64,000 nucleotides of DNA from an uncultured Candidatus Saccharibacteria bacterium (lineage in GTDB: Bacteria; Patescibacteriota; Saccharimonadia; Saccharimonadales; JAGQNJ01): assembly GCA_964510945.1 (NCBI GenBank), contig CAZEED010000001.1:98774-162773 (forward strand), in the 5' to 3' direction. Within the stretch, counting starts at the first letter, position 1. The number at the start of each line of letters is the position of its first letter. The notes beneath the pieces are model-generated. The model did no database searches, was not told the DNA's origin, and saw only the letters and a program-made list of their open reading frames with translations. Positions 26,172 to 39,057 of the stretch are shown in pieces. The position numbers and the translations under genes are program-made.

Positions 26172-29100
26172 ATATTCACATGGACCTGACATAACAGATT
26201 TTGATGCAGTGAGACTTGCAGTTGCAAGTTCAGCTGATATTTCAGACTGGTCATACGGAGAGGTTACAAAACCAGAGACTATAAACTACCGAACTCAAAA
26301 ACCAGAACGAGATGGACTGTTTTGTGAAAGGATCTTTGGACCAGTTAAAGATATCAATCCACATGACGCTAAATATAAAGGCGTTAGATCAAGAGAAGCT
26401 GCAGTTGATAAAAAAGGTGAGATCGTTACTCGTAGTATTGTGCGACGTGAAAGAATGGGCCATATTCAACTTGCATCACCAGTTGCACATATTTGGTTCT
26501 TACGAGGCACACCATCAGCGATGGGGCTACTACTTGGCTTGACTGTAAAAAATCTTGAGCGTGTTGCCTACTTCGCTAGTTACATCATTAAAAAAGTCGA
26601 CGTTAAGAAGCGCGATCAACTACTAACTGATAGAGAAGCGCAGACTGATGCAGCAAAACAAGCTATTGACGCCAGATATGAGGCTGAAGCTAAAAAAGAC
26701 GATGCCAATATTAAAGCACTTGCCGAAATGCGTACTAAAGAGCTTGAAGAGTTGGTTAACGAGTTTAACGAGTTTAAAGAACAAATTGATATGTTAGTCG
26801 AATACGGCCTTATCAACGAAGGTGACTATCAAAACCTTCCGGATAATTTGAAAGAAATCATCGAAGTTGGTATGGGCGGTAACGCTTTGAAACAAATGCT
26901 AGACGAGATTGAACTTGAAGATCTAATTAAACAACTCAATGAAGAAGCTGAAGGCGCAAAAGGCCAACGTAAGAAAAAACTACTAAAACGTCTAAGATTA
27001 CTCGAGAGCATGAATAGAGCTGGTATAAAGCCTAACTCTATGTGTTTACAAGTTTTGCCAGTTATACCTCCAGACCTTCGTCCAATGGTTCAGTTGACTG
27101 GCGGTAGGTTTGCTACATCAGACCTAAACGATCTTTACAGACGTGTTATCAACCGAAATAATCGATTGAAAAAACTAATTGACCTAAATGCTCCAGAAGT
27201 TATTTGCCGTAACGAGCAGAGAATGCTTCAAGAAGCTGTCGACGCACTAATTGATAACGGCAATGCCCGCTCTGGACGTGCAGTAGCAGCATCCGGTCAA
27301 CGACGACGCCTAAAGTCACTTAGCGATATGCTTAAGGGTAAACAAGGACGTTTCCGTCAAAACTTGCTTGGTAAACGTGTAGATTATTCTGGTCGTTCAG
27401 TCATTGTATCTGGACCAGAGCTTAAGATTGACCAATGTGGACTGCCGAAGATGATGGCTCTAGAATTGTTCAAACCATTTGTAATAGGGTCGTTAATAGA
27501 AAACGATTACGCGCACAACATTAGAAGTGCGACAAGAATGATTGAGCTAGGCGAAACACCAGTTTGGGATGCACTAGATGAGGTTATTAAAGAAAAATAT
27601 GTATTGCTAAACCGTGCTCCAAGTCTTCACAGATTAAGTATCCAGTCGTTTAAGCCGATTCTTATTGAAGGTAAAGCTATTCAGCTTCACCCACTAGTTT
27701 GTAGAGGTTTTAACGCTGACTTCGATGGAGACCAAATGGCTGTACATTTGCCGTTATCTGATGCTTCACAAAAAGAAGCTAAAGAAATAATGGCTGCAAA
27801 TAAAAACCTATTGAAGCCAGCAGATGGTTCACCGATACTACACATAGAACAAGATATTGTGCTTGGATGTTACTACTTGACATATATAAAGCCAGGTAGC
27901 GAGACTAAACCAAGAGCCTTTAAATCCCTAGAAGAAGCGATGATGGCTTATGATTGCGAGTATATCAAGCTTCAATCCGCTGTACGTGTTCCATTTAGAG
28001 GTAAAGTACAAGAAACTACATTAGGTAGACTACTCTTCAACGAGATCTTCCCAGAGGATTTTGAATTTCACAATACTACAATGACCAAAAAACTTTTAGG
28101 ACAGGTTATGTCTGAAGTTTACGAGAAGTATGGTCAAGACGTAACTGCTGAAATTGCAGATGACTTAAAAGATATTGGATTCGAATATGCGACAGTTTCT
28201 GGTCTGTCTCTCGGAATCTCAGATTTTAGCGATATTGTTGGGCTAGATAAGAAACTAAGTGAAGGTGAAACAAAATCTGCAGATATTAGCACACAATACA
28301 ATGAAGGGTTCATTACAGATGATGAGCGCTATAGACTAACTGTGAATAACTGGAAAACAATTGATTCTGACATTCAAGAAATGCTAACCAAACAATTTAC
28401 ACAAGAAGACAGTGCCATGGCTACAGCTGTGACATCTGGAGCTAGAGGTAATATTGGACAGGTTAAAACTGCTGTTGGAATGCTTGGAATTACTCAGGAT
28501 ACTACTGGACGAGCTATTGAGCTTCCAATTAGATCTAGCTACAAAAAAGGTCTAAATCCATTGGAATACTTTACCGCGACACGTGGTGCTCGAAAGCAAA
28601 TGATTGATACAGCCCTAAAAACCGCTGACTCAGGATATTTGACTCGACGTTTAGTAGACGTGAGTCAAGATGTATTTACCGATGATGAAGAGGCGCCAGA
28701 TCCTGGCTTCCCAGTTTATAGGTCTGATTCGATTGAAATTGGCGTAACCCTTGGTTCTCGACTTGAAGGCCGATTTGCGGCTGAGACAGTCAAGCCACAT
28801 ATTAAAAAGGGTGAACTGATAACTAGAGCCATTGCTGAGATGATCGATAAAGACTTGAGTATTGAATCAGTTAAGATTATGAGCGTTCTAAGTTGTAGTA
28901 GCCCTCGCGGTATTAGCCGAAAATCTTATGGTATTGACCCAGCTACTGGTAACCTTGTCAGTGCGTACTATCCTGTTGGGGTAGTAGCAGCGCAAAGTAT
29001 TGGTGAACCGGGTACACAGTTGACTCTAAGAAGTTATCACGCTGGTGGACAATCGGTTGAAGATATAACAACTGGTCTGCCGCGTGTTGAAGAACTTTTC

Positions 29101-29976
29101 GAGACTCGCACACCAAAAGGACAGGCTGTATTGTCTGAGCTTGCCGGTACAGTTAATGTTTGGGAAGAGGGCGAAAAATATATTGTCCAAGTAACTTCAG
29201 ACGACAAATCGCGAGTCGATCTAGACCTTAATGATAGAATTGCCAAGATTGAATCTAATACTGAAGTTGGTGTTGGAGATGTAATCGCAATCGGGCCAAA
29301 TGATTCTGACCCACTTGTCGCGCCAGTTGCCGGAAAAGCATCTGTAACTAAGAAAAAGATTAGTATTAGCCCTGTAAGCGAACAGGTTGTGAAATACGAA
29401 ATACCTGGAAATAAGCCAGTTGTAGTCAAAGATGGCGACACTGTAGTAGCCGGACAACGACTAACTGGTGGATCGATTAGCCTACACGAGTTAATGGCAT
29501 TACAGGGCATAGAGGCAACTCAACGCTACATCATGAATGAAATCCTTCAGATCTTTGTATCGCAAGGGCAGAATATTGCTAACAAACACCTTGAAGTAAT
29601 TGTTAGACAAATGTTCTCCAGAGTACAGATAGATGATGCAGGTGATAGTGAATACGTAACAGGTGATATCGTCAGTAAAGTTGATGTGTTAGAGAAGAAC
29701 GAAGAACTAGCTAAGAACAAAAAACAGCTCGTTCAGTACAGTCAATTACTGCTGGGAATCACTAAAGCCTCACTATCAACAGAATCATTCTTGTCAGCCG
29801 CTAGTTTCCAGGATACTACTAGAGTACTTATAGCAGCAGCGACAAGTGGAAAAGTTGATTACCTAAGAGGGCTAAAAGAAAACGTAATCTTGGGACGCAT
29901 GATTCCAGTAGGAACAGGCTACAATGCCTACGACAAAAAAGATGCTACCCCCGTTGACGAAGAAGATGAAAAGTGA
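26164..29976 (+). CDS. rpoC: DNA-directed RNA polymerase subunit beta'
   Basis: ORF 26119-29976; start at ATG 26164 overlapping the rpoB stop by 8 nt; catalytic [12 protein letters not shown]. Confidence 0.96.
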
Positions 29977-29993
29977 TAGGGTTATAGACTGAT

Positions 29994-30407
29994 ATGCCAA
30001 CAATTAACCAACTAATTCGAAAACCTAGAAAACCTGTGACTAAGAAATCAAAGTCGCCAGCGCTTCATCGGGTTGTTAATAACCTAAATACGACTAACTA
30101 CGAAAAGCCATCACCTTTCAAGCGTGGTGTCTGCGTTAAAGTAACAACAAAAACACCTAAAAAACCAAACTCTGCGCTCCGTAAAGTTGCCCGTGTTAGA
30201 TTGACTAATGGTCATGAAGTCTGGGCCTACATCGGTGGCGAAGGGCACAACTTACAAGAGCACGCTGTAGTACTAATCCGTGGTGGTCGAGTAAAAGACC
30301 TTCCGGGTGTTCGATATCACATCGTACGTGGTGCATTAGACCTTCAGGGTGTTTCTGACCGAAAACAAGGCCGATCTAAGTATGGTACAAAGAAGGCGAG
30401 TAAGTAG
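29994..30407 (+). CDS. rpsL: 30S ribosomal protein S12
   Basis: PTINQLIRK..., [15 protein letters not shown]. Confidence 0.97.
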
Positions 30408-30884
30408 ATGCCAAGGAAAAAGACCAAAGAACTAATTCGAAAAATTCCTGGTGATCGCTTATACGACAGCGTCATGGTACAACGCGTAATTAATCGTGTA
30501 ATGCTAGATGGTAAAAAACAAGTTGCTGAACGTTTGGTCTATGGTGGTATGCAGGATGCTGCCGACAAACTTAAAGTTAAAAATCCTCTAGAAGTCTTTG
30601 ATAAAGCGCTTGGTAATATCCGTCCAAGTGTAGAGACTAGGTCTAGACGAGTTGGTGGAGCTAACTATCAGATACCATTTGAAGTTAAAGGCCAGAGACA
30701 ATCTCACCTTACAATTATGTGGTTTGTTGAAGCAGCACGTGCACGATCAGGCATGAGCATGAAAGATCGAATCGCCCAAGAGCTTATGGATGCGTATAAC
30801 GAATCCGGTTCAGCAGTTAAAAAACGCGAAGATATGCACAAAATGGCAGAAGCCAACCGTGCCTTCGCTCACTTCGCGAGATAG
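30408..30884 (+). CDS. rpsG: 30S ribosomal protein S7
   Basis: 158 aa; RRVGGANYQIPFEV, KMAEANRAFAHF. Confidence 0.96.
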   Translation: MPRKKTKELIRKIPGDRLYDSVMVQRVINRVMLDGKKQVAERLVYGGMQDAADKLKVKNPLEVFDKALGNIRPSVETRSRRVGGANYQIPFEVKGQRQSHLTIMWFVEAARARSGMSMKDRIAQELMDAYNESGSAVKKREDMHKMAEANRAFAHFAR

Positions 30885-30888
30885 CAGA

Positions 30889-31092
30889 ATGATTTCTGAA
30901 ACTGTCGGACGGTTTAAAAGAAACGTGGCTGATCAATTAGTCCAGCACGAAGATAGGCTAAGAACTTCGTTTGAAGATCAGGAAAATAATATCCGCCTAA
31001 ACTTTGAAGTTGCAGGTTTAAGCGTTGTCCATGCTTTAGCAAGTTTAGCAGTAACAACAGTTGAAATATTAACACCTAGGAGTACAGAATAA
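30889..31092 (+). CDS. Possible 67-aa ORF filling the rpsG-fusA spacer
   Basis: ATG 30889 is 5 nt after the rpsG stop; its TAA abuts the fusA ATG (TAAATG); the fusA SD AGGAG lies inside it; no homology recognised. Confidence 0.3.
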   Translation: MISETVGRFKRNVADQLVQHEDRLRTSFEDQENNIRLNFEVAGLSVVHALASLAVTTVEILTPRSTE

Positions 31093-33180
31093 ATGGCGGA
31101 CAAAAAATCAGATCTAAAAAATTATAGAAATATCGGTATTATAGCGCATATTGATGCTGGTAAAACTACAACAACAGAGGGTATTCTTTACCGTACTGGC
31201 TTAAAGCACAAAATTGGTGCAGTTCACGAAGGTGAAACGACCACCGACTGGATGGAACAAGAACGCGAACGCGGTATCACCATCACATCTGCCGCGGTTA
31301 CCTGTTTCTGGAAAGATCACAAGATCAACATCATAGACACACCTGGGCACATTGACTTCACCGCCGAAGTTGAACGTAGCCTAAGAGTACTAGATGGTGC
31401 TGTAACAGTATTTGACGGCAAAATGGGTGTCGAGAGTCAATCAGAGACAGTATGGCGTCAAGCGAACAAATATAATGTCCCTCGGATCTGTTTTATTAAC
31501 AAAATTAACCAAACAGGTGGCGATTTCTACAAATCACTTGATACTATTCACGCAAGGTTAACAAAACGTGCTTTTCCGATACATCTACCATTAGGTTTCG
31601 AACAGTCGATTAATGGAATCATTGATCTGATTAGTATGAAAGCATACACCTATAAAGAGTTTACTGATCACGAATTAGTCGAATCAGACATCCCAGAGAA
31701 TATGGCAGATCAGGTAAAGAAGTACCGAAGTCTATTGGTCGAAAACGCAGTAGCCGAAGATGAAAAAATCCTAGAAAAATTCTTCGAAGTTGGAGAAGAT
31801 GGATTATCAGAGGATGAAATAAGGCAAGCCGTCCGAACAGCAACACTTACCAGTGATTTCTTCCCTGTAACGGGTGGTGATGGTCGCGGGGTGATTGTAG
31901 AGAAAGTCCTTGATGCAGTTAATGACTTTTTACCAAGCCCACTAGATCGTGGCTCTGTCTGGGGCACACATCCTAAGAGTGGCGATGAGATTGAAAGAAA
32001 ACCTTCAGAGTCTGAGCCAATGTCAGCTTTAGCGTTTAAAATTGCAACTGATCCTTTTGTAGGTAAATTATGCTTTGTAAGAGTATATTCAGGTAAGTTG
32101 CAGGCAGGATCATATGTCTATAACAGCTCTACAGGCGAAAAAGAACGTGTTGGACGCGTTGTACGTATGCAAGCCGATAAACGAGAAGACATTACAGAGA
32201 TTAGCGCTGGTGACATAGCTGCGATAGTAGGCCTAAAAGGTACTACGACTGGTAATACCCTATGTGACGTAAATAACACAGTTGTACTCGAGAATATTAC
32301 TTTCCCTGATCCACCGGTATCGATTGCCATTGAGCCAAAAACTAAAGCCGATCAAGAAAAGATGGGTATTGCTTTGCAAAGACTAGCCGAAGAAGATCCA
32401 ACCTTCCAAGTAAAGGTTGATCACGAGACAGGGCAAACAATTATTAAAGGGATGGGTGAATTGCACCTCGAAATCATTGTCGATCGAATGAAAAGAGAAT
32501 TTGCTGTTGAGGCTAACATTGGTCAACCGCAAGTTGCTTATCGCGAGACAATCCGAAAAGATGGTGTTGAAGTACAAGGCAAATTTATCCGACAATCAGG
32601 TGGACGAGGTCAATATGGTGACGTTTGGCTGCGACTTTCGCAAAATGAACAAGGTAAGGGCTTTGAATTCATCAACAAAATTAAGGGTGGTGTGATTCCT
32701 GCAGAATATATTAAGCCAGTTGAAGAGGGAATCAAAGAAGCCATGAGCAATGGAGTACTCGCTGGATATCCAGTCGTAGACATCGTTGCCGAACTTTATG
32801 ATGGTAGCTATCATGACGTGGACTCTAGTGAAATGGCCTTTAAAGTTGCAGGATCTATGGCATTACAAGCGGGTGTTAAACAAGCTGCGCCAGTATTACT
32901 AGAGCCAGTGATGAAAGTAGTAGTTGTTACACCTGAAGAGTTTATGGGTGAAGTTATTGGTGACCTTAATAGTAAACGTGGTCGTATCGAGTCTATGGAA
33001 GATCTAACAGCCGGTATTAAAGAAATTACAGCCTTTGTACCACTCGGAGAAATGTTTGGCTACACTACTAATCTACGTAGCAATACACAAGGTCGCGCTA
33101 GCTCAAGCATGGAGCTGGATCACTACGCTGATGTTCCAAGCCACGTAGCCGAAGCAATCATCGCCAAAAACAGTAAATAA
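31093..33180 (+). CDS. fusA: Elongation factor G
   Basis: 695 aa; [24 protein letters not shown](Q). Confidence 0.97.
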
Positions 33181-33241
33181 CATATTCATATAAATATATA
33201 GAAAAATCTCAAAGAATTAAATTTCAACACCTAGACAAATG

Positions 33242-34048
33242 CTATTTATTTATATTCGTTCCGTCTCCGAATAATTTACCAGAATTAAAATCAGCGCGCA
33301 TCCCCGTATAATCGCCAGTAGGTAACTGTATACTCCTAACCCTTATTGCAGCAATATCTATAGGATCTCCCATGACCGCTACATACATTCTCGCTTTTAC
33401 TTGTCTATTGACTGGGGTGCCATAGTCATCAGTGTCATATATGTACTCGTTAAAGCCGTAGCAACCTATTCTACGTGCAGTCTTATTACTTTCTTGTCGA
33501 TGGTCATAACTACTATTACTAGTTGTATACCATGATCTTGTTCCTTCTCTGTATAAACGAATGCTAACATGCGTATTCCAACTTTTTGCTTTCCAGCAAA
33601 GCTGTACTGCCATCGGACGATTACGAGTGTTTTCGGGCTTTGGAATGATAAAAGACTTTGATATATAGGTCATTCTTGGCGTATATAGACTAGTTCTAGA
33701 TCTCCAACCATTTATTTTACGCCCTTTAGAATTAGTGGATACTTTGATCTTGTGGCCAACAGACCTCCAATTTACTTGCGGAATACTAGTATCATACTGA
33801 TCTTCATTATTATTTTCTGCTGCTGCGTCGTCGTAGTTGAGTACTTTAATAGGTTTTTTCTCTACTATATCCCCAGCCGGATATGTTTTGCTGTAACCCT
33901 TCGATTGCGCGTCTGAATTTCTGATGTTGAATAAATCATTTTTGTATGCGAATACCCCTAAAGCTAACACTAAACCAATCAATAGCGACATAACTAATAT
34001 TGGTTGAAATCTACGATTTGTAGTTTTAGTTTTATTATTTGACTTCAT
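33242..34048 (-). CDS. Membrane-anchored two-Cys extracytoplasmic protein, paralog 1 (unrecognised family)
   Basis: 268 aa; basic N-tail plus TM (ILVMSLLIGLVLALGVFAY). Shares DLFNIRNSDAQSK.YSKTYPAG, RPMAVQLCWKA, GCYGF, IAAIRV with the two downstream paralogs. Confidence 0.6.
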   Translation of the reverse strand: MKSNNKTKTTNRRFQPILVMSLLIGLVLALGVFAYKNDLFNIRNSDAQSKGYSKTYPAGDIVEKKPIKVLNYDDAAAENNNEDQYDTSIPQVNWRSVGHKIKVSTNSKGRKINGWRSRTSLYTPRMTYISKSFIIPKPENTRNRPMAVQLCWKAKSWNTHVSIRLYREGTRSWYTTSNSSYDHRQESNKTARRIGCYGFNEYIYDTDDYGTPVNRQVKARMYVAVMGDPIDIAAIRVRSIQLPTGDYTGMRADFNSGKLFGDGTNINK

Positions 34049-34080
34049 ATGTTTAGTCTCATTTCAATTATTTAATATAA

Positions 34081-34881
34081 TTATCTTGTGATGTCCGTTT
34101 CGAATTGTCTCAGGTAATATCCATTACTGTCGTGTTCTTGTGGTTTTGTTGGTTCAAAGATTTTAATAGATGCCAGTTCAATGCCACCTTCAGGTACTTT
34201 AATGAAGAGTTTTGCTTTTATGGATTTTTTTATTCTTACCGCGTATTGTCCTCGATGTATTGGCTCACTCTGCGGATGTGATCTAGGTACGACAGATTTA
34301 TAGCCAACATCATAAAAACCCCAGCAAGCAATTTCGCGATACCGATTAGGATCGCTTTCATATCGATGGGTGAAATTTATATGATATGCTCCATCCTTGG
34401 TCCCCCACACTTTATTGATATCTCTACTCAAACGTAGTTTTATGGTTGTATTCTTTTCTAGAGCTCGCCAGCAAACATACACAGCCATTGGACGTTTTGA
34501 TGTAGGAATGGTAAACCATTTACTGAAGTAGACCCATCCTTCGTTATCTAGAGTGTGTTTTTCATCGGCGTGATTCATCCTCCAACCATCAATCATAGGG
34601 CCACCTGGTTTAGCGGGCATACGAATATTCCCGCCTTGAGATTTAACCGATACTAACTTACCTCTGTAATACTTGAATGGTGTGGGTTTGTAATTAACTA
34701 TTTTTCCCGCAGCATAGGTTTTATTATATCGTTTAGAATCCGCCGACGAATCTTTTAGATTCAGCAAATCCATACTAAAAATAACAAGTCCAATTACGAA
34801 TATTAATATAATTGAAAAAGTTATAATTTTTGATTTATTTGATAATTTAAGATCCTTATTTTTCTTTTTTTTGTTTGCCAT
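34081..34881 (-). CDS. Membrane-anchored two-Cys extracytoplasmic protein, paralog 2
   Basis: 266 aa; MANKKKKNKDLKLS tail, TM, NIRMPAKPGGPMIDGWR, RPMAVYVCWRA, IACWGFYD, LASIKIF; SD AAGGA before the ATG. Confidence 0.65.
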   Translation of the reverse strand: MANKKKKNKDLKLSNKSKIITFSIILIFVIGLVIFSMDLLNLKDSSADSKRYNKTYAAGKIVNYKPTPFKYYRGKLVSVKSQGGNIRMPAKPGGPMIDGWRMNHADEKHTLDNEGWVYFSKWFTIPTSKRPMAVYVCWRALEKNTTIKLRLSRDINKVWGTKDGAYHINFTHRYESDPNRYREIACWGFYDVGYKSVVPRSHPQSEPIHRGQYAVRIKKSIKAKLFIKVPEGGIELASIKIFEPTKPQEHDSNGYYLRQFETDITR

Positions 34882-34912
34882 ATTTGTCCTTAGCTACATT
34901 TATTAGTTATCT

Positions 34913-35869
34913 TTAATTGGTGATGTCAGATTCAAACTGTCTATCGTAATAATTTGCACCGAGTTTAGATCTTTCAGGCGGTTGTGTTGGGTGAAAAACT
35001 TTTATTGAAGCAATTTCTACTTGGCCACGAACCTTTATATTAATTCTAGCCTTAATGGATTTGGATTTATTCATTTTTTTCATGTATTGCCCTGGATATA
35101 TTGGCTCGTTTTGCGGATGTGATCTAGGCACGACACGTTCATAGGCGATATCGTAAAAACCCCAACATTTTATTTTTTGCCACTCATCGTCACCATGTTC
35201 ATAACGATGTATATAGTTCATTATAGGCGCGCCATTTTTGTCTGACCATAATTCTCGTCTATTCTTGTTACTGAGCGTAGGACCTGCGAATAGAAGTTTT
35301 AATGATGTTTCTTTGCCGGACAATGATCTCCAGCAGACATATAAAGCTAGCGGTTTATCACTCTTGTCTTTTGGGATATTTATTTCTTTTGAAAAATAAG
35401 ACCAGTCAGGTAAATATGTAGTAAGTCTAGGGTTTACAGCTTTTTTATTGGGTTTTAACTTTTTAAAAAGTTTATCGTAGGTTGATGAGTTAACTAATGG
35501 CGATCGCCATCCCTTAATCATAGGACCTCCTGGTTTGGCAGGCATTCTTATGTTCTTTCCTAAAGATTTCATCATTACAAAATCATCGTCGCCGTATATT
35601 CCGCTATCTTTACGAACTTTTGTTTTGCCGTAGTTAACGATTTCGCCGGCTGGGTAAGTTCTATTGTAATTCTTAGAATCTGCAGATGAGTCTCTTAGAT
35701 TCAGCAAATCCATACTATAAATTAATAATGCAAGTACAATTACTAATAAAATTGAAAAAGTTATAATTTTTGTTTTATTTGATAATTTAAGATTCTTATT
35801 TTTCTTTTTTTGTTTGGCATTTTCTCTCCTATACTTAAGCATTATACATAACACACTAATTGATTCCAA
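34913..35869 (-). CDS. Membrane-anchored two-Cys extracytoplasmic protein, paralog 3 (conserved ATG at 35820 is out of frame because of an A7 tract)
   Basis: ORF open to 35869. The homolog of the paralog-2 start (ATG 35820 behind AGGAGAG) is in the +1 frame. Motifs NIRMPAKPGGPMIKGWR, KPLALYVCWRS, IKCWGFYD, IASIKVF. Confidence 0.55.
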   Translation of the reverse strand: MESISVLCIMLKYRRENAKQKKKNKNLKLSNKTKIITFSILLVIVLALLIYSMDLLNLRDSSADSKNYNRTYPAGEIVNYGKTKVRKDSGIYGDDDFVMMKSLGKNIRMPAKPGGPMIKGWRSPLVNSSTYDKLFKKLKPNKKAVNPRLTTYLPDWSYFSKEINIPKDKSDKPLALYVCWRSLSGKETSLKLLFAGPTLSNKNRRELWSDKNGAPIMNYIHRYEHGDDEWQKIKCWGFYDIAYERVVPRSHPQNEPIYPGQYMKKMNKSKSIKARINIKVRGQVEIASIKVFHPTQPPERSKLGANYYDRQFESDITN

Positions 35870-36034
35870 TTTCTTATTTTATGTACTCTATTAACTATAA
35901 TTAAGAGTTAAAAGAATAATCCAAAAATGATTCTTTACTTGTATGCGTATTTTCGCTATTATATTCAGGTATCTCGCGTGAGTATTATATACTTATGCTA
36001 AATAATTAAGTAATTAACAGGAGTAACAACTAAA

Positions 36035-37216
36035 ATGGCAGATTTTGATCGAAGTAAACCACACGTAAACGTTGGAACAATGGGGCACGTTGACCATGGT
36101 AAAACAACACTAACAGCAGCAATTACAGCTGTACTAGCTAAAAAGCTTCCTAGCGACGTTAACAAACCAGTTAAATACGACGAAATTGACAAAGCACCAG
36201 AAGAAAAAGCACGTGGTATAACAATTGCGACATCTCACCAAGAATACGAGAGTAAAAAACGACACTACGCACACGTTGATATGCCAGGTCACGCTGACTA
36301 CGTCAAGAACATGATTACAGGTGCCGCACAGATTGACGGAGCGATTCTAGTAGTATCAGCTGCAGATGGCCCTATGCCTCAAACACGAGAACACGTACTA
36401 CTCGCAAAACAGGTCGGCGTTCCATCGATACTTGTATTCATGAACAAGATGGACCTTGCAGATCCAGAACTAGTTGAACTAGTAGAAATGGACATTCGTG
36501 AACTACTCGGCAAATACGAATTCGACGAGAACGCTCCAATTATTAAAGGTTCTGCAACTAAAGCTCTTGAAGGTAGTGCCGCAGATGAAGATGCCGTTAT
36601 GGAACTTGTCGACAAGATGGACGAATATGTTCCAGAACCAAAACGAGACCTTGATAAAGACTTCTTGATGGCTATTGAAGACGTTTTCTCAATTAAAGGA
36701 CGCGGAACTGTAGCAACCGGTCGTATTGAACAAGGAGTTGTTAAGGTAAACGAAGAAGTTGAAATTGTCGGTATCCATGATACAAAAAAGACTGTTGTTA
36801 CAGGTGTAGAGATGTTTAAAAAGAATCTAGATCAAGGTCAGGCTGGAGATAACGTCGGAATCTTACTTCGAGGTATCGAACGTGATGATATCGAACGTGG
36901 TCAAGTTTTGGCTAAACCCGGTTCAATTACGCCTCACACAGAATTTGACGCAGAAGTATACGTGCTAACAAAAGAAGAGGGTGGACGACACACCCCATTC
37001 TTTAAAGGTTACAAACCTCAATTCTACTTCCGAACAACGGACGTTACAGGTGAGGTAGAACTACCGGCTGATAAAGAAATGGTCATGCCTGGTGATACAG
37101 TAACTTTCAAGGTTAAATTGATCCAACCGATTGCTATGGATCAAGGTCAACGATTCGCCATCCGTGAAGGTGGACGAACAGTTGGCGCCGGTGTTGTAAC
37201 AAAAATTACAAAATAA
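36035..37216 (+). CDS. tuf: Elongation factor Tu
   Basis: 393 aa; [25 protein letters not shown]. Confidence 0.98.
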
Positions 37217-37250
37217 TAGTCCTTCCGCCACAAGGCAGACGAGAAGCCAA

Positions 37251-37279
37251 AAAGAGCCTCCAAAACAGAGGCTCTTTTC
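37251..37279 (+). terminator. Intrinsic terminator after tuf
   Basis: AAAGAGCCTC-CAAAACA-GAGGCTCTTT, T-rich tail. Confidence 0.7.
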
Positions 37280-37402
37280 ATATTTATCATTTTGTTATAC
37301 AATACAGTAACAAACTAATCGTAATGACTAAAAGTCGTTGTATATGATCTATTTATCATTGCAAAGATGTTACATTACACCCATAAAGAAAGGTATTTTT
37401 AT

Positions 37403-37789
37403 ATGGCTGAAGCCGATAAGACACAACCAACAAAAAAGCCAGCAGCAAAGTCTGCTGATCTAAAAGAAAAGGCCGTAGCTTCTACGAGTCAAAGGATTCG
37501 GATCCGATTAAAGGCTTATGATCATAAAGTAATTGATCAGGCTACAAAACAAATTGTCGATACTGCAATTCGTACAGGTGCTAATATTGCAGGACCAATC
37601 CCACTGCCAACAAGAAGAACCGTCTATACAGTCGTAAAAAGTCCGCATGTCTTTAAAAAAGGCCGAGAGCAGTTCGAGATGCGTACGCACAAACGACTCA
37701 TTGACGTATTAGAACCAACCCCTAAGACAATTGACTCGTTAATGAACCTAAGTCTGCCCGCTGGTTGCGATGCAGAAATTAAAATGTAG
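37403..37789 (+). CDS. rpsJ: 30S ribosomal protein S10 (with about 25-aa Lys/Ala-rich N-extension)
   Basis: ORF 37367-37789; start at ATG 37403; core [18 protein letters not shown]...RTHKRLIDV. Confidence 0.93.
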
Positions 37790-37798
37790 ATTTCTTGT

Positions 37799-37975
37799 AT
37801 ACTTTTGTGCCGGCAAAAGTATGGCAAAACCTCGGGCTATCCGTTTGTCTTTACATATCTTCTTGTCAATAATCACAACAGCCTGCGGAACTCATCCGCC
37901 TGCTGGCGGACTCAAACAGTCCTCGGCATTCTAGTTGTGATTTTGACGAAGTTAATCAGGACAAGCCGGAGGCCC
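37799..37975 (+). repeat. Structured foldback element, copy A (5' hairpin ATACTTTTG/CAAAAGTAT plus long imperfect stem with variable apical hairpin)
   Basis: Alignable with 53015-53206 (+) and 53277-53467 (-). Conserved blocks ACAACAG(C/T)CTGCG(G/A)AAC and CA(A/G)ACAGTCCTCG(G/C)C; helices maintained by paired substitutions. Confidence 0.65.
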
Positions 37976-38013
37976 AAACAACATCATCGAAAATATAATG
38001 ATACAATACGTTT

Positions 38014-38277
38014 ATGGCAAAAAAACAAAAACGTATAAGAGAAACAGACGATGCATATTTCTTAAAACTAGTATTATTCATGATCTTGGGATCAATGTGG
38101 TTAAAAGTCAGTGATGGTCAATCTTGGCAAATTCCGTTACCCATAGGACTAGTTTTCGGAATACTACTGGCGAGACATGACCATTTTAGGATAGATCGTA
38201 AAATAGAATATGCTGTGCTACTAATTGCAGCGTTTGTGGGTTTTTGGGCGCCAATAGGGATTTATATTAATCTGTAA
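38014..38277 (+). CDS. Small hydrophobic protein (about 3 TM) inserted between rpsJ and rplC
   Basis: 87-aa ORF; TACAAT (38002-38007) lies 6 nt before the ATG, no SD; no family recognised. Confidence 0.45.
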   Translation: MAKKQKRIRETDDAYFLKLVLFMILGSMWLKVSDGQSWQIPLPIGLVFGILLARHDHFRIDRKIEYAVLLIAAFVGFWAPIGIYINL

Positions 38278-38433
38278 TATACACAACATATTGACAGAGG
38301 TAAGTTATTCGTGTTAATCTGTTATGGTATCAAGAAAAACCTTGGTGATTCTAGTGAAGGTTTGCTCGTTTTAACAGGGGCAAAAACCACATAAGAGCCA
38401 ATTTTTTTATGCAAATAAACGAAAGGTTAGATA

Positions 38434-39057
38434 GTGGACTTTAAGAGTCTTATTACAACTAAAATTGGAACAACAAGCACCATCGCTGAAGATGGTAGTG
38501 TTGAAGCAATTACTCTATTGTCGGCCACACCTAATACAATTACTCAGATAAAGACTGATGAAACTGATGGATACACTGCTATCCAACTAGGTTTTGAAGA
38601 TAAGAATAAATCAAAACTAGGCAAAGCACTTCTAGGACACGTCAAAAAATCTAAAGTAATGCCAAGAATTATCAAAGAAGTGCGTATTAATGAATTAAAT
38701 GAAGAACATAGCGTCGGCCAACAATTTACAGCCGACGTTTTTAGTGTTGGCGACATTGTTGATGCATCCGGTGTAAGTAAAGGAAAAGGCTGGGCTGGAA
38801 CAATTAAACGACACAACTTCCATCGTGGACGTAAAACACATGGTGGACGTAGTTATCGACGACCGGGTTCAATTGGATCAATGTATCCCCAAAAGATTTT
38901 TAAAGGTAAGAAAATGGCCGGACAAATGGGCAACGAAAACGTAACTGTTAAGAATTTAAAAGTTACTATTGTTGACGTTGAAAAGAATATTATTGGGGTA
39001 AAAGGGGCTGTCCCTGGTCCAAAACGCGGTACTGTAGTGCTGAGGGGAGTGAAATAG
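38434..39057 (+). CDS. rplC: 50S ribosomal protein L3
   Basis: GTG start; [22 protein letters not shown]. Confidence 0.95.

What the first reader, a model, noticed from the sequence alone, without database searches (positions are those of the whole stretch)
33242..35869. Three tandem paralogs of an unrecognised membrane-anchored two-Cys protein inserted antisense between fusA and tuf
Seen: three consecutive minus-strand ORFs (268, 266 and about 300 aa) share one architecture. Each has a Lys-rich N-tail, a single hydrophobic helix, and then conserved blocks. The blocks are DL(L/F)N(L/I)(K/R).S.A.SK.Y.(K/R)TY(P/A)AG.IV, NIRMPAKPGGPMI.GWR (paralogs 2 and 3), (R/K)P(M/L)A(V/L).(V/L)CW(R/K), C(W/Y)GF(Y/N), and (I/L)A(S/A)I(K/R)(I/V).

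Each mature region contains exactly two Cys, and both are conserved. The 5' ends of paralogs 2 and 3 are nearly identical at nucleotide level (34801-34881 versus 35741-35820), while paralog 1 is far more diverged.

Established: rpsL-rpsG-fusA-tuf is normally contiguous and co-directional. Here about 2.85 kb of opposite-strand genes separates fusA from tuf.

Inference: these are N-in signal-anchored, probably disulfide-bonded surface proteins of a family I cannot place, expanding by tandem duplication or gene conversion. In a putative episymbiotic CPR cell they are candidates for host contact or surface variation.
Basis: partly seen in the sequence, partly recalled or inferred. Interest (0 to 1): 0.8.

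Follow-up and report, generated by a model that had tools for sequence, protein, structure and literature searches.

The report
Exported jelly-roll protein cassette splitting fusA-tuf
A small group of Saccharibacteria carries, backwards between two core translation genes, a recombining operon of two to five exported sugar-binding-module-like proteins of a previously undescribed family; these are plausible but untested cell-surface or host-contact factors.

Summary
Three minus-strand paralogs (33242-34048, 34081-34881, 34913-35842) fill the 2,854-bp gap between fusA and tuf. They are real genes: ortholog dN/dS is 0.09-0.20, they are syntenic in 8 other lineages, and the AlphaFold models are confident.

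No Pfam, NCBIfam, PHROGs, PADLOC or PDB sequence match exists. A profile search of 1.84 billion proteins finds only about 10 relatives, and both named genomes are Candidatus Saccharibacteria.

New points:
- P2 and P3 belong to old subfamilies and are not recent duplicates. Their similar 5' ends reflect recombination: signal modules follow lineage, bodies follow type.
- P3's ribosome-binding-site-led ATG is out of frame (A7 versus A8).
- Copy number is 2-5 where the family is present. Three relatives with equally similar EF-G lack it.

Best reading: exported, probably ligand- or glycan-binding surface proteins. The function is inferred. This is a new family of a known kind, of moderate interest.

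The parts
33242..34048 (-). P1, the B-type paralog (268 aa), last gene of the operon. The putative signal region is residues 1-47 (34048-33908) and the mature jelly-roll domain is 33907-33245. Cys151 lies at 33598-33596 and Cys196 at 33463-33461.
   Evidence: ORF. B clade in the tree. Ortholog dN/dS 0.09-0.20. AF2 pLDDT 76.3, with helix 15-36 and a beta-sandwich from residue 53.
34081..34881 (-). P2, the A-type paralog (266 aa). A Shine-Dalgarno AAGGA lies at 34891-34887 and an A8 run at 34872-34865. The putative signal region is 34881-34741, with the invariant Ala47 codon at 34743-34741. The mature domain is 34740-34084, with Cys137 at 34473-34471 and Cys186 at 34326-34324.
34913..35842 (-). 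P3, the C-type paralog, first gene of the operon. Gene callers give 309 aa from ATG 35842-35840. The body aligned to P2 starts at 35821. The mature domain is 35680-34916, with Cys at 35335-35333 and 35167-35165. It carries a roughly 25-residue insertion (SPLVNSSTYDKLFKKLKPNKKAVNP) typical of the C clade.
   Evidence: (P0011, 309 aa, identical in L004-L007). dN/dS against L015_C is 0.38.
35805..35830 (-). P3's ancestral translation start. It comprises the Shine-Dalgarno AGGAGA (35830-35825), ATG (35820-35818) and a poly-A run of 7 (35811-35805). The run is one A shorter than in P2 and in orthologs, so this ATG opens only a 19-codon frame (35820-35761).
   Evidence: Sequence. The same A7 occurs in four other assemblies. 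The ortholog in L015 has A8 and reads MPNKKKKKK in frame. There is no downstream stimulatory hairpin.
35841..35869 (-). Promoter-like element of the operon: TTGGAA (35869-35864), a 17-nt spacer, then TATAAT (35846-35841). The only in-frame ATG of P3 (35842-35840) overlaps the -10 box, and the 'TTG start' of the 318-aa ORF is the -35 box.
   Evidence: Consensus scan, 10/12. TTGAAT-17-TATAATGCTTAAGTATA is conserved upstream of the first gene in L001, L015 and L016. The -10/TSS part is also conserved in the more distant L008 and L011. In those loci this ATG is out of frame.
34049..34080 (-). The 32-nt P2-P1 spacer. Together with the 31-nt P3-P2 spacer at 34882-34912, the tight spacing indicates one operon.
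33181..33241 (.). The 61-bp convergent spacer between the fusA stop and the P1 stop. No intrinsic terminator is recognisable.
   Evidence: 0 terminators; weak fold, z -1.8.
35870..36034 (.). Divergent intergenic region between the operon and tuf. Its tuf-proximal half is highly conserved among relatives and presumably holds tuf's own promoter and leader.
   Evidence: conserved GCATAAGTATA.AATACTCACGCGAGATACC block. (93.7% identity to L016 across tuf plus the intergenic region).
31093..33180 (+). fusA (EF-G), the left flank.
36035..37216 (+). tuf (EF-Tu), the right flank.

Best explanation
The three ORFs form one minus-strand operon, transcribed divergently from tuf from a conserved sigma-70-like promoter and convergent with fusA. 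It encodes paralogs of a lineage-restricted family of exported proteins found only in a subclade of Saccharimonadales (Candidatus Saccharibacteria).

Each product is targeted to the Sec pathway by an N-terminal module made of a Lys/Arg-rich tail, a hydrophobic segment of about 19 residues and a polar stretch ending in [S/A]-x-Ala. It is then either cleaved after the invariant Ala to release a protein of about 24 kDa, or left tethered by that segment.

The exported part is a single beta-jelly-roll domain of about 215 residues of the carbohydrate-binding-module / galactose-binding-like type. It has two invariant Cys (a probable disulfide), a set of invariant aromatic residues and no invariant acidic residue. 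I therefore read it as a non-catalytic ligand-binding module, most likely glycan-binding, that acts at the cell surface. In an episymbiont that could mean binding the host envelope or the cell's own envelope.

Loci always combine at least one A/C-type gene with at least one B-type gene, which suggests the two types work together. The cassette evolves by gene gain and loss (2-5 copies), by recombination that swaps domain bodies behind a lineage-specific promoter-plus-signal module, and by frequent 5' lesions in the C-type copy. In this genome the C-type copy is frameshifted at a poly-A run.

Shown: gene reality, operon layout, restricted distribution, synteny, presence/absence and copy-number variation, signal-like N-terminus, fold class, mosaic recombination, and the P3 frameshift.

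Inferred: export itself, cleavage versus anchoring, the disulfide, ligand or glycan binding, A/B cooperation, and any role in host contact.
For: Gene reality:
- dN/dS is 0.09-0.20 for P1 and P2 orthologs.
- AF2 gives pLDDT 84.9 / pTM 0.76 for P2 and 76.3 / 0.70 for P1.

Operon:
- Spacers are 31-32 nt with Shine-Dalgarno sequences.
- A promoter-like TTGGAA-17-TATAAT is conserved in relatives.

Distribution:
- There are 15-16 clusters per subfamily among 5.8 billion proteins.
- Of the 12 profile hits among 1.84 billion representatives, 8 are full-length relatives, 2 are family fragments and 2 are spurious repeat proteins.
- The family occurs in 2 of 185,579 GTDB species representatives, both Candidatus Saccharibacteria, and at 1 locus in the JGI metagenome scan.

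Synteny and variation:
- The family lies antisense between fusA and tuf in L001, L002, L008, L011, L004-7, L016/17, L018 and L025, with 2, 3 or 5 genes.
- It is absent from L022-L024, whose EF-G is 87-90% identical, comparable to carriers.

Export signal:
- Every full-length member has 4-14 K/R and almost no D/E before a 19-residue segment with Kyte-Doolittle score 2.2-3.1.
- That segment is followed by a 10-14-residue stretch ending [S/A]-x-A.
- This Ala is invariant in 37/37 members, although the surrounding N-terminal sequence varies.
- The AF2 models are disordered exactly there, and the first beta-strand starts at residue 53.

Fold:
- Foldseek against PDB agrees, with best E 1.5e-4 to a pectate-lyase CBM.

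Non-catalytic reading: the invariant residues are Y52, Y56, W100, Y118, K121, W138, the two Cys and several Gly/Pro, with no D or E.

Mosaicism:
- N-terminal identity against body identity is 90% / 52% for P0012 versus L011_A, and 39% / 79% for P0012 versus P3.
- L018 is colinear with L002 from tuf into about the first 120 nt of the gene, then switches to a P3-like body.

Context: in cultivated Saccharibacteria, essential envelope proteins with polysaccharide-binding domains have been proposed to target host glycans (PMC10633639).
Against: - No signal-peptide predictor could be run. A hydrophobic segment of about 19 residues with a 10-14-residue c-region is long for a cleaved signal.
- There are no expression data.
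- GC3 equals the window mean. The cassette is therefore an old resident and does not look like a recently mobile host-range island.
- P3 may not be expressed at all.
Confidence: 0.5

Rival explanations
1. The proteins are uncleaved type-II (N-in) signal-anchored membrane proteins. The jelly-roll would be held within about 10 residues of the membrane, acting as a membrane-proximal receptor or envelope-organising protein rather than a released or wall-associated lectin.
For: The positive-inside N-tail and a 19-residue hydrophobic segment with Kyte-Doolittle score up to 3.1 are long enough to span a membrane. AF2 models it as one continuous helix, 15-43 in P2.
Against: The Ala (-1) and small (-3) residues are invariant in an otherwise variable region, which is hard to explain without cleavage. 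There is no stalk or linker between the segment and the domain.
Confidence: 0.3
2. The domain is catalytic: a small secreted jelly-roll enzyme, such as a polysaccharide lyase or glycosidase-like enzyme, acting on host or environmental polymers.
For: Jelly-roll enzymes exist. Y118, S120 and K121 are invariant and H172 nearly so. The domain (about 215 aa) is larger than a typical CBM of about 130 aa.
Against: No acidic residue is invariant. The best structural neighbours are mostly non-catalytic modules. There is no Pfam or NCBIfam enzyme hit even at E 10.
Confidence: 0.1
3. The locus is a contingency (phase-variable) locus. Poly-A runs in the 5' coding region of each paralog would switch individual copies on and off by slipped-strand mispairing, or the copies would be expressed through -1 ribosomal or transcriptional slippage. 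This would give combinatorial surface variation, with P3 caught in the OFF state here.
For: - P3 has A7 and P2 has A8 at homologous positions, and the shift exactly breaks the frame.
- A -1 slip on A_AAA_AAA_G would restore MPNKKKKNKNLKLSNK.
- A7-A8 runs occur in the first 40 nt of nearly all family genes.
- A7+ runs are otherwise depleted in the window (39 against 67.6 expected), and P2's A8 is the only A8 in 64 kb.
- C-type copies carry independent 5' lesions in three lineages.
Against: - All five assemblies of this species show the same A7, so no length polymorphism is seen.
- The lesions in L016 (nonsense codon) and L018 (ATG to ATC) are not reversible slippage events and look like decay.
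- Lys-rich signal n-regions in a 40%-GC genome generate A-runs anyway.
- There is no stimulatory hairpin.
Confidence: 0.15
4. The ORFs are decaying or functionless filler that drifted into a permissive spacer of the str cluster, with no adaptive role.
For: - The distribution is very narrow.
- Close relatives lack the cassette without apparent consequence.
- There are lesions in C-type copies.
- These genomes hold other small unknown ORFs in the same cluster.
Against: Purifying selection is strong on A- and B-type genes (dN/dS 0.09-0.20). There are 16 invariant residues across 37 members. Both types are retained in every carrier lineage, and the fold predictions are confident.
Confidence: 0.05

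Closest known systems
Type B/C carbohydrate-binding modules of the beta-jelly-roll class (CBM6, CBM35, CBM36, CBM86, CBM4/22; galactose-binding domain-like fold)
   Different: There is no detectable sequence relationship, with no Pfam hit even at E 10 and about 10% identity in structural alignments. The domain is about 215 residues against about 130. It stands alone behind a signal sequence rather than being appended to an enzyme. It has two invariant Cys. Ligand binding is untested.
Envelope proteins with polysaccharide-binding domains that are essential for epibiotic growth of Southlakia epibionticum (VCBS, dockerin and FN3-domain proteins; Wang et al., Cell 2023, PMC10633639)
   Same: Same phylum and the same proposed logic: exported proteins with glycan-binding-type folds, speculated to target host-associated glycans.
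   Different: The domains are unrelated. Those proteins are large and multidomain, and their phenotypes were measured. The family here is small and single-domain, is confined to an uncultivated subclade, and has no functional data.
Variable surface-protein cassettes that recombine behind a constant 5' module (general class: pilin or adhesin cassette variation, contingency loci)
   Same: A constant promoter-plus-signal module sits in front of exchangeable domain bodies. The paralogs are in tandem, and there are homopolymer runs in the 5' coding region, one of which is frameshifted.
   Different: The mosaicism is seen between lineages, not within a population. There are no silent cassettes, invertible elements or recombinase nearby, and no tract-length polymorphism among five assemblies.
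Canonical str operon (rpsL-rpsG-fusA-tuf)
   Same: The flanking genes and their order and orientation are the canonical ones.
   Different: fusA and tuf are separated by 2.85 kb of opposite-strand genes, and tuf has its own conserved upstream region. Relatives without the cassette have a spacer of about 330-450 bp holding a small co-directional ORF.

Membership tests
CBM6 / CBM35 / CBM36 carbohydrate-binding modules | Sequence match to the family profile (Pfam CBM_6, CBM_35 and related) | tested here: not met
   hmmscan against Pfam-A at E up to 10 gives 0 families for all three paralogs and for P0034-P0036. NCBIfam gives only noise. A profile search against PDB sequences gives only noise.
CBM6 / CBM35 / CBM36 carbohydrate-binding modules | Beta-jelly-roll (galactose-binding-like) fold | tested here: met
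CBM6 / CBM35 / CBM36 carbohydrate-binding modules | Binds a carbohydrate through a loop site or concave-face site lined by aromatic residues, often with structural Ca2+ | not testable with these tools
   Invariant aromatic residues exist (Y52, Y56, W100, Y118, W138). Their position in the model could not be inspected because no coordinates are returned, and binding needs an experiment.
CBM6 / CBM35 / CBM36 carbohydrate-binding modules | Occurs as an accessory module of a carbohydrate-active enzyme | tested here: not met
   All members are single-domain proteins of 238-309 aa. No glycoside hydrolase or lyase is adjacent.
Sec-dependent secretory protein with a cleavable (SPase I) signal peptide | Tripartite n-h-c signal with small residues at -3 and -1 | tested here: met
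   By inspection, not by a trained predictor. The n-region has 4-14 K/R, the h-region is 19 aa with Kyte-Doolittle score 2.2-3.1, and the c-region ends [S/A]-x-A. The -1 Ala is invariant in 37/37. Caveat: the c-region of 10-14 aa is long.
Sec-dependent secretory protein with a cleavable (SPase I) signal peptide | Actual cleavage and export | not testable with these tools
   Needs SignalP or DeepTMHMM at least, and N-terminal sequencing to settle it.
Bacterial lipoprotein | Lipobox L-[AS]-[GA]-C at the end of the hydrophobic segment | tested here: not met
   P1, P2, P3 and most members have no Cys in the N-terminal 60 residues. The occasional Cys in the hydrophobic segment (L001_B, L016_g3) is not conserved and not in a lipobox.
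Sortase-anchored (LPXTG) or type IV pilin-like proteins | C-terminal LPXTG plus hydrophobic tail, or N-terminal G|F/M-x-x-x-E prepilin motif | tested here: not met
   The C-termini are ...RQFE(S/T)DIT(R/N) in A/C types and ...GK.F.DG.N..K in B types, with no hydrophobic tail. There is no prepilin motif (alignment A3).
Phase-variable contingency gene (homopolymer slippage) | Homopolymer tract inside the 5' coding region whose length sets the reading frame | tested here: met
   P3 has A7 (35805-35811, frame broken) while P2 and orthologs have A8 (in frame).
Phase-variable contingency gene (homopolymer slippage) | Tract length polymorphic within a population or among close strains | tested here: not met
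   The window plus four independent assemblies (L004-L007) all carry A7. Read-level data were not available.
Programmed -1 ribosomal frameshift (dnaX-type) | Slippery heptamer plus downstream stimulatory structure | tested here: not met
   An A-run followed by G is present, but the 0-frame heptamer is not canonical. The 88 nt from the tract (35812-35725) fold no better than shuffles (z +0.89).
Recently acquired genomic island or mobile element | Foreign composition, integrase or transposase, flanking repeats or tRNA | tested here: not met
   GC3 is 0.29-0.32 against a window mean of 0.314. No mobility genes lie between fusA and tuf. There are no PHROGs hits and no tRNA nearby.

The most novel reading that the evidence does not exclude
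The cassette is a host-range or attachment determinant of this Saccharimonadales subclade. It would be a pair-wise acting (A/C plus B) set of secreted lectin-like proteins. Their exposed domains would be swapped by recombination behind a constant promoter-plus-signal module, and individual copies would be switched by slippage at 5' poly-A runs. It would sit antisense inside the str cluster, where convergent transcription from fusA could couple its expression inversely to translation-gene expression.
Probability: 0.12. Interest if true: 0.7.

Novelty: new member of a known kind. Interest (0 to 1): 0.4.

Why it matters
How ultrasmall episymbiotic Saccharibacteria recognise and hold on to host cells is largely open. 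So far type IV pili and a few large envelope proteins have been implicated, and only in cultivated oral strains (PMC10633639).

This locus offers a compact, easily cloned set of exported single-domain candidates in an environmental lineage. It comes with natural experiments already in the databases: carriers and non-carriers with equally similar core genes, arrays of 2, 3 or 5 copies, and domain swaps behind a fixed signal module.

It also shows that the str/S10 gene cluster can be split by opposite-strand accessory genes in reduced genomes, although it is usually treated as an invariant phylogenetic marker block. That matters for synteny-based annotation and for binning checks.

If the function turns out to be mundane, the family still deserves a profile. 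About 40 sequences currently carry no name or only 'hypothetical protein'.

Tried and rejected
- **Sequence libraries.** Pfam, NCBIfam, PHROGs and PADLOC scans and a profile search of PDB sequences gave nothing meaningful.
- **Two large repeat proteins from the 1.84-billion-protein profile search.** P0037 (1,646 aa, 12 stretches) and P0040 (1,382 aa) are an M43-peptidase/PKD/T9SS protein and a Flg_new/LRR protein. Their scores are sums of many weak repeat matches to a short 'I.GW' segment, so I rejected them as relatives.
- **Structure searches.** The BFVD viral search gave only weak CBM-like and tail-protein matches (E at least 1e-4, TM at most 0.34) and no specific phage link.
- **RNA and terminators.** Rfam on 29000-39000 at E up to 1 gave no hit. 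No intrinsic terminator was found between fusA and P1 or anywhere in 32900-36300.
- **Recent horizontal acquisition.** Rejected, because GC3 equals the window mean.
- **Sequencing error as the cause of the P3 frameshift.** Rejected, because four other assemblies share it.
- **The upstream in-frame ATG (35842) as the true P3 start.** Considered unlikely. It overlaps the conserved -10 hexamer, has no Shine-Dalgarno sequence, and the equivalent ATG is out of frame in all relatives.
- **dnaX-like programmed frameshift.** No stimulatory hairpin was found.
- **Habitat.** A literature search for the sample and run accessions found nothing.
- **Lipoprotein, sortase-substrate and pilin readings.** Rejected on motifs.
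- **Disulfide geometry and mapping of conserved residues onto the model.** Not possible, because coordinates are not returned.


Full report
**1. What is in the sequence**

Between fusA (31093-33180, +) and tuf (36035-37216, +) lie 2,854 bp holding three minus-strand ORFs:
- P1: 33242-34048 (268 aa)
- P2: 34081-34881 (266 aa)
- P3: 34913-35869 as the longest ORF (318 aa from TTG; 309 aa from ATG 35842)

rpoC, rpsL, rpsG, fusA, tuf, rpsJ and rplC are all on the + strand. Of the 46 ORFs of at least 150 aa in the window, 41 are on the + strand, and the three paralogs account for three of the five minus-strand ones.

The P3-P2 and P2-P1 spacers are 31 and 32 nt. AAGGA sits before P2 and a weaker GAGA before P1, so the three genes look like one operon.

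The three proteins align end to end. P1 is 32% identical to P2 and P3, and P2 is 56% identical to P3. The descriptive part of the finding is confirmed.

**2. They are real genes**

- Nei-Gojobori dN/dS between the window genes and their orthologs in other contigs is 0.09-0.20 for P1 and 0.15-0.19 for P2, at dS of about 0.8-2.7. For P3 against its only close ortholog it is 0.38.
- AlphaFold2 with the family alignment gives pLDDT 84.9 / pTM 0.76 for P2 and 76.3 / 0.70 for P1.
- Sixteen residues are invariant across 37 full-length members.

**3. How widespread the family is**

The family is very narrow.
- The word-indexed search of 5.8 billion proteins gave 15 hits for P2 and 16 for P1. All are unnamed or 'hypothetical protein', and none has a Pfam domain.
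- An exhaustive HMMER profile search of 1.84 billion cluster representatives returned 12 hits. Eight are full-length relatives and two are fragments. The other two are large repeat proteins, which I reject because their scores are sums of weak repeat matches.
- A degenerate-pattern scan of one genome for each of 185,579 GTDB species found the family in two genomes. Both are titled 'uncultured Candidatus Saccharibacteria bacterium'.
- The JGI metagenome scan added one locus.
- The closest EF-G homologues with names are from Candidatus Saccharimonadales.

**4. Synteny, copy number and absence**

In every related contig with enough context, the family sits in the same place and orientation: antisense between fusA and tuf.

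| Loci | Family genes |
|---|---|
| L001, L002/L013, L008/L014, L011, L025 | 2 |
| L004-L007 (same species as the window; proteins identical) | 3 |
| L016/L017 | 5, the first split by an in-frame TAA |

Three genomes lack the family: L022, L023 and L024. Their EF-G is 87-90% identical to the window's, comparable to L001, L008 and L011. Their fusA-tuf spacer is about 330-450 bp and holds only a small co-directional ORF. An HMM search of their ORFs found no family hit at E up to 0.01.

The cassette is therefore a lineage-specific insertion into the canonical str cluster, with presence/absence and copy-number variation.

It is not compositionally foreign. GC is at the low end (0.34-0.37 against a mean of 0.40), but GC3 is 0.29-0.32 against a window mean of 0.314. 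No mobility gene, tRNA or phage-family hit is associated with it.

**5. Three old subfamilies, not a recent duplication**

A neighbour-joining tree of the mature domains resolves the following groups:
- clade A (P2-like)
- clade C (P3-like, with an insertion of about 25 residues)
- clade B (P1-like)
- two divergent L016 genes, sister to A and to B
- an outgroup pair, P0035/P0036, which sits in tandem at a different locus next to a YbaK-like gene

Each of A, B and C spans several lineages, so the P2/P3 split predates those lineages. Every locus combines at least one A/C-type gene (tuf-proximal) with at least one B-type gene (fusA-proximal). In L016 the order is C, B, A', B'. From this I infer that the functional unit is a pair, but that is not tested.

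**6. Recombination behind a constant 5' module**

P2 and P3 are 43/45 identical per 45-nt window over about the first 75 nt of coding sequence, synonymous sites included. Identity falls to about 50-60% in the body.

The same pattern recurs in other lineages. The N-terminal 64 residues follow the lineage and the body follows the type:

| Pair | N-terminal identity | Body identity |
|---|---|---|
| P0012 vs L011_A | 90% | 52% |
| P0012 vs P3 | 39% | 79% |
| P0014 vs L002_A | 85% | 54% |
| P0014 vs P3 | 40% | 74% |

At DNA level, L018 is colinear with L002 from tuf through the intergenic region into about the first 120 nt of the first gene (85.5%). It then switches to a P3-like body (77.7% to the window). 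The switch point falls around the conserved SK.Y.KTYPAG.IV block.

Cassette divergence is also decoupled from flank divergence:
- L016 has flanks 88-94% identical to the window, but only its P1-type gene is alignable, at 73%.
- L001 has flanks at 74-83%, and its cassette aligns contiguously at 76%.

**7. P3 is frameshifted at its ancestral start**

The homolog of P2's start in P3 is AGGAGA-N4-ATG (ATG at 35820-35818). It is followed by A7 (35811-35805), where P2, L001_A, L008_A, L011_A and the P3 ortholog in L015 have A8. From that ATG the frame closes after 19 codons.

The same A7 is present in four other assemblies, so this is not a sequencing error.

The only in-frame ATG (35842-35840) overlaps the -10 hexamer of a promoter-like element, TTGGAA-17-TATAAT (35869-35841). 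The core of that element, TATAATGCTTAAGTATA, is conserved upstream of the first gene even in the more distant L008 and L011. In those loci this ATG is out of frame and quickly stopped.

P3 is therefore one of three things:
- poorly initiated
- dependent on a -1 slip or transcriptional slippage at the A-run, although no stimulatory hairpin follows
- an early pseudogene

C-type genes also carry independent 5' lesions in two other lineages: a nonsense codon in L016 and ATG changed to ATC in L018. P3's dN/dS is higher, at 0.38.

Runs of seven or more A are depleted in the window (39 against 67.6 expected), and P2's A8 is the only A8 in 64 kb. That keeps a phase-variation reading alive, but no tract polymorphism is seen. 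I rate it about 0.15.

**8. What the proteins look like**

Every full-length member has the same N-terminal layout:
- an N-tail with 4-14 Lys/Arg and almost no acidic residues
- a 19-residue hydrophobic segment (Kyte-Doolittle 2.2-3.1)
- a polar stretch of 10-14 residues ending in [S/A]-x-Ala

That Ala (A47 in P1 and P2) is invariant in 37/37 members, although the N-terminal region otherwise differs between lineages. Both AF2 models are disordered exactly there, and the first beta-strand begins at residue 53.

This is the n-h-c layout of a Sec signal with a (-3,-1) site, but it is longer than usual. I could not run a trained predictor, so cleaved secretion and an uncleaved signal anchor both remain open. 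I lean towards cleavage because of the invariant Ala. Lipobox, LPXTG and prepilin motifs are absent.

The rest of the protein is a beta-sandwich.
- Foldseek against PDB agrees at weak significance (best E 1.5e-4).
- The viral library adds only generic CBM-like tail-protein matches.

This establishes the fold class and nothing more.

The invariant residues are Y52, Y56, G59, G83, G99, W100, Y118, S120, K121, P126, P131, C137, W138, C186 and G188, with no Asp or Glu among them. That fits a binding module with a structural disulfide better than a glycosidase. The geometry could not be checked.

**9. Most likely mechanism**

The operon is transcribed away from tuf. Its products are exported through Sec, then released or held at the membrane. 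There a disulfide-stabilised jelly-roll domain binds a ligand, most likely a glycan of the host's or the cell's own envelope.

Several observations fit a surface-exposed function under changing selection: the A/C plus B pairing, the swapping of bodies behind a fixed promoter-plus-signal module, the copy-number changes and the losses.

The reading also fits what is proposed for cultivated Saccharibacteria, where essential envelope proteins with polysaccharide-binding domains are thought to target host glycans (PMC10633639).

Everything from 'exported' onward is inference of decreasing strength. My rough confidences are:

| Claim | Confidence |
|---|---|
| Export | 0.85 |
| CBM-like fold | 0.8 |
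| Non-catalytic binding role | 0.45 |
| Host contact specifically | 0.25 |

**10. Comparison with known families, and novelty**

The family works like, and may be distantly related to, jelly-roll CBMs. It fails the sequence-membership test and the 'accessory module of an enzyme' criterion, so I do not file it as a CBM family member. It is a new, unnamed, lineage-restricted family of a familiar kind: a small exported jelly-roll protein.

The unusual aspects are its position, antisense inside the fusA-tuf junction of a marker-gene cluster, and its modular recombination.

**11. Verdict**

Interest is moderate (0.4). The cassette is a tidy, testable candidate for surface interaction in an uncultivated Saccharibacteria subclade. 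It has no functional evidence, its fold is a very common one, and one of the three copies is possibly not expressed.

Noticed in passing
window 35805-35842 (minus strand): P3's Shine-Dalgarno-led ATG (35820-35818) is out of frame because its poly-A run is A7 rather than the A8 of P2 and orthologs. The only in-frame ATG (35842-35840) overlaps the conserved -10 box. The same state is found in four other assemblies. The possibilities are slippage-dependent expression, weak initiation or an early pseudogene.
   Followed up: yes
L016 4751-5680 and L018 989-1912: The C-type (P3-like) first gene carries independent 5' lesions in two other lineages. In L016 an in-frame TAA splits it into 80 + 225 aa, and this is seen in two samples. 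In L018 the start is lost (ATG to ATC) and the ORF begins inside the hydrophobic segment.
   Followed up: partly
L019 2441-4348, L020 2407-4314, L021 2421-4328: A second locus holds two tandem, distant paralogs of the family (P0035, 274 aa, and P0036, 238 aa). It is not between fusA and tuf but next to a YbaK/tRNA_edit gene, in contigs from the same samples as L016. It was not determined whether the window's genome has such a second locus.
   Followed up: partly
window 30889-31092 (+); L022 4686-4988, L023 4677-4976, L024 4712-5011, L008 4445-4744: A small ORF with no Pfam match (67 aa here, 99-100 aa in relatives) sits between rpsG and fusA in this Saccharimonadales group. Several relatives also have a 73-90 aa ORF between rpsL and rpsG, which is absent here.
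   Followed up: partly
window 38014-38277 (+): An 87-aa hydrophobic ORF with no significant Pfam match lies between rpsJ and rplC. Relatives have an ORF of the same size in the same position (87-88 aa in L001, L002, L011, L016, L022, L023), so a small membrane protein appears to be embedded in the S10 cluster.
   Followed up: partly
L022 7104-7286, L023 7131-7373, L024 7135-7431; L002 9838-10038: Relatives without the cassette have a small co-directional ORF (60, 80 or 98 aa) in the fusA-tuf spacer. L002 has a 66-aa ORF between fusA and its B-type gene. The spacer seems to have been a permissive site already before or independently of the cassette.
   Followed up: no
window 35900-36034 and homologous regions of L001, L002, L015, L016, L018: A highly conserved block, GCATAAGTATA.AATACTCACGCGAGATACC..., lies upstream of tuf, on the tuf side of the divergent intergenic region. 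It is presumably tuf's own promoter or leader now that the operon is split. It has no Rfam match.
   Followed up: partly
window, whole; 34865-34872: Runs of seven or more A/T are depleted in the window (39 found, 67.6 expected from shuffles). The A8 run at the 5' end of P2 is the only A8 in the 64 kb.
   Followed up: partly
L011 5569-6420: In L011 an additional 283-aa opposite-strand ORF with no Pfam match lies between tuf and rpsJ. It does not match the family HMM (E > 1). This is another opposite-strand insertion in the same gene cluster.
   Followed up: partly
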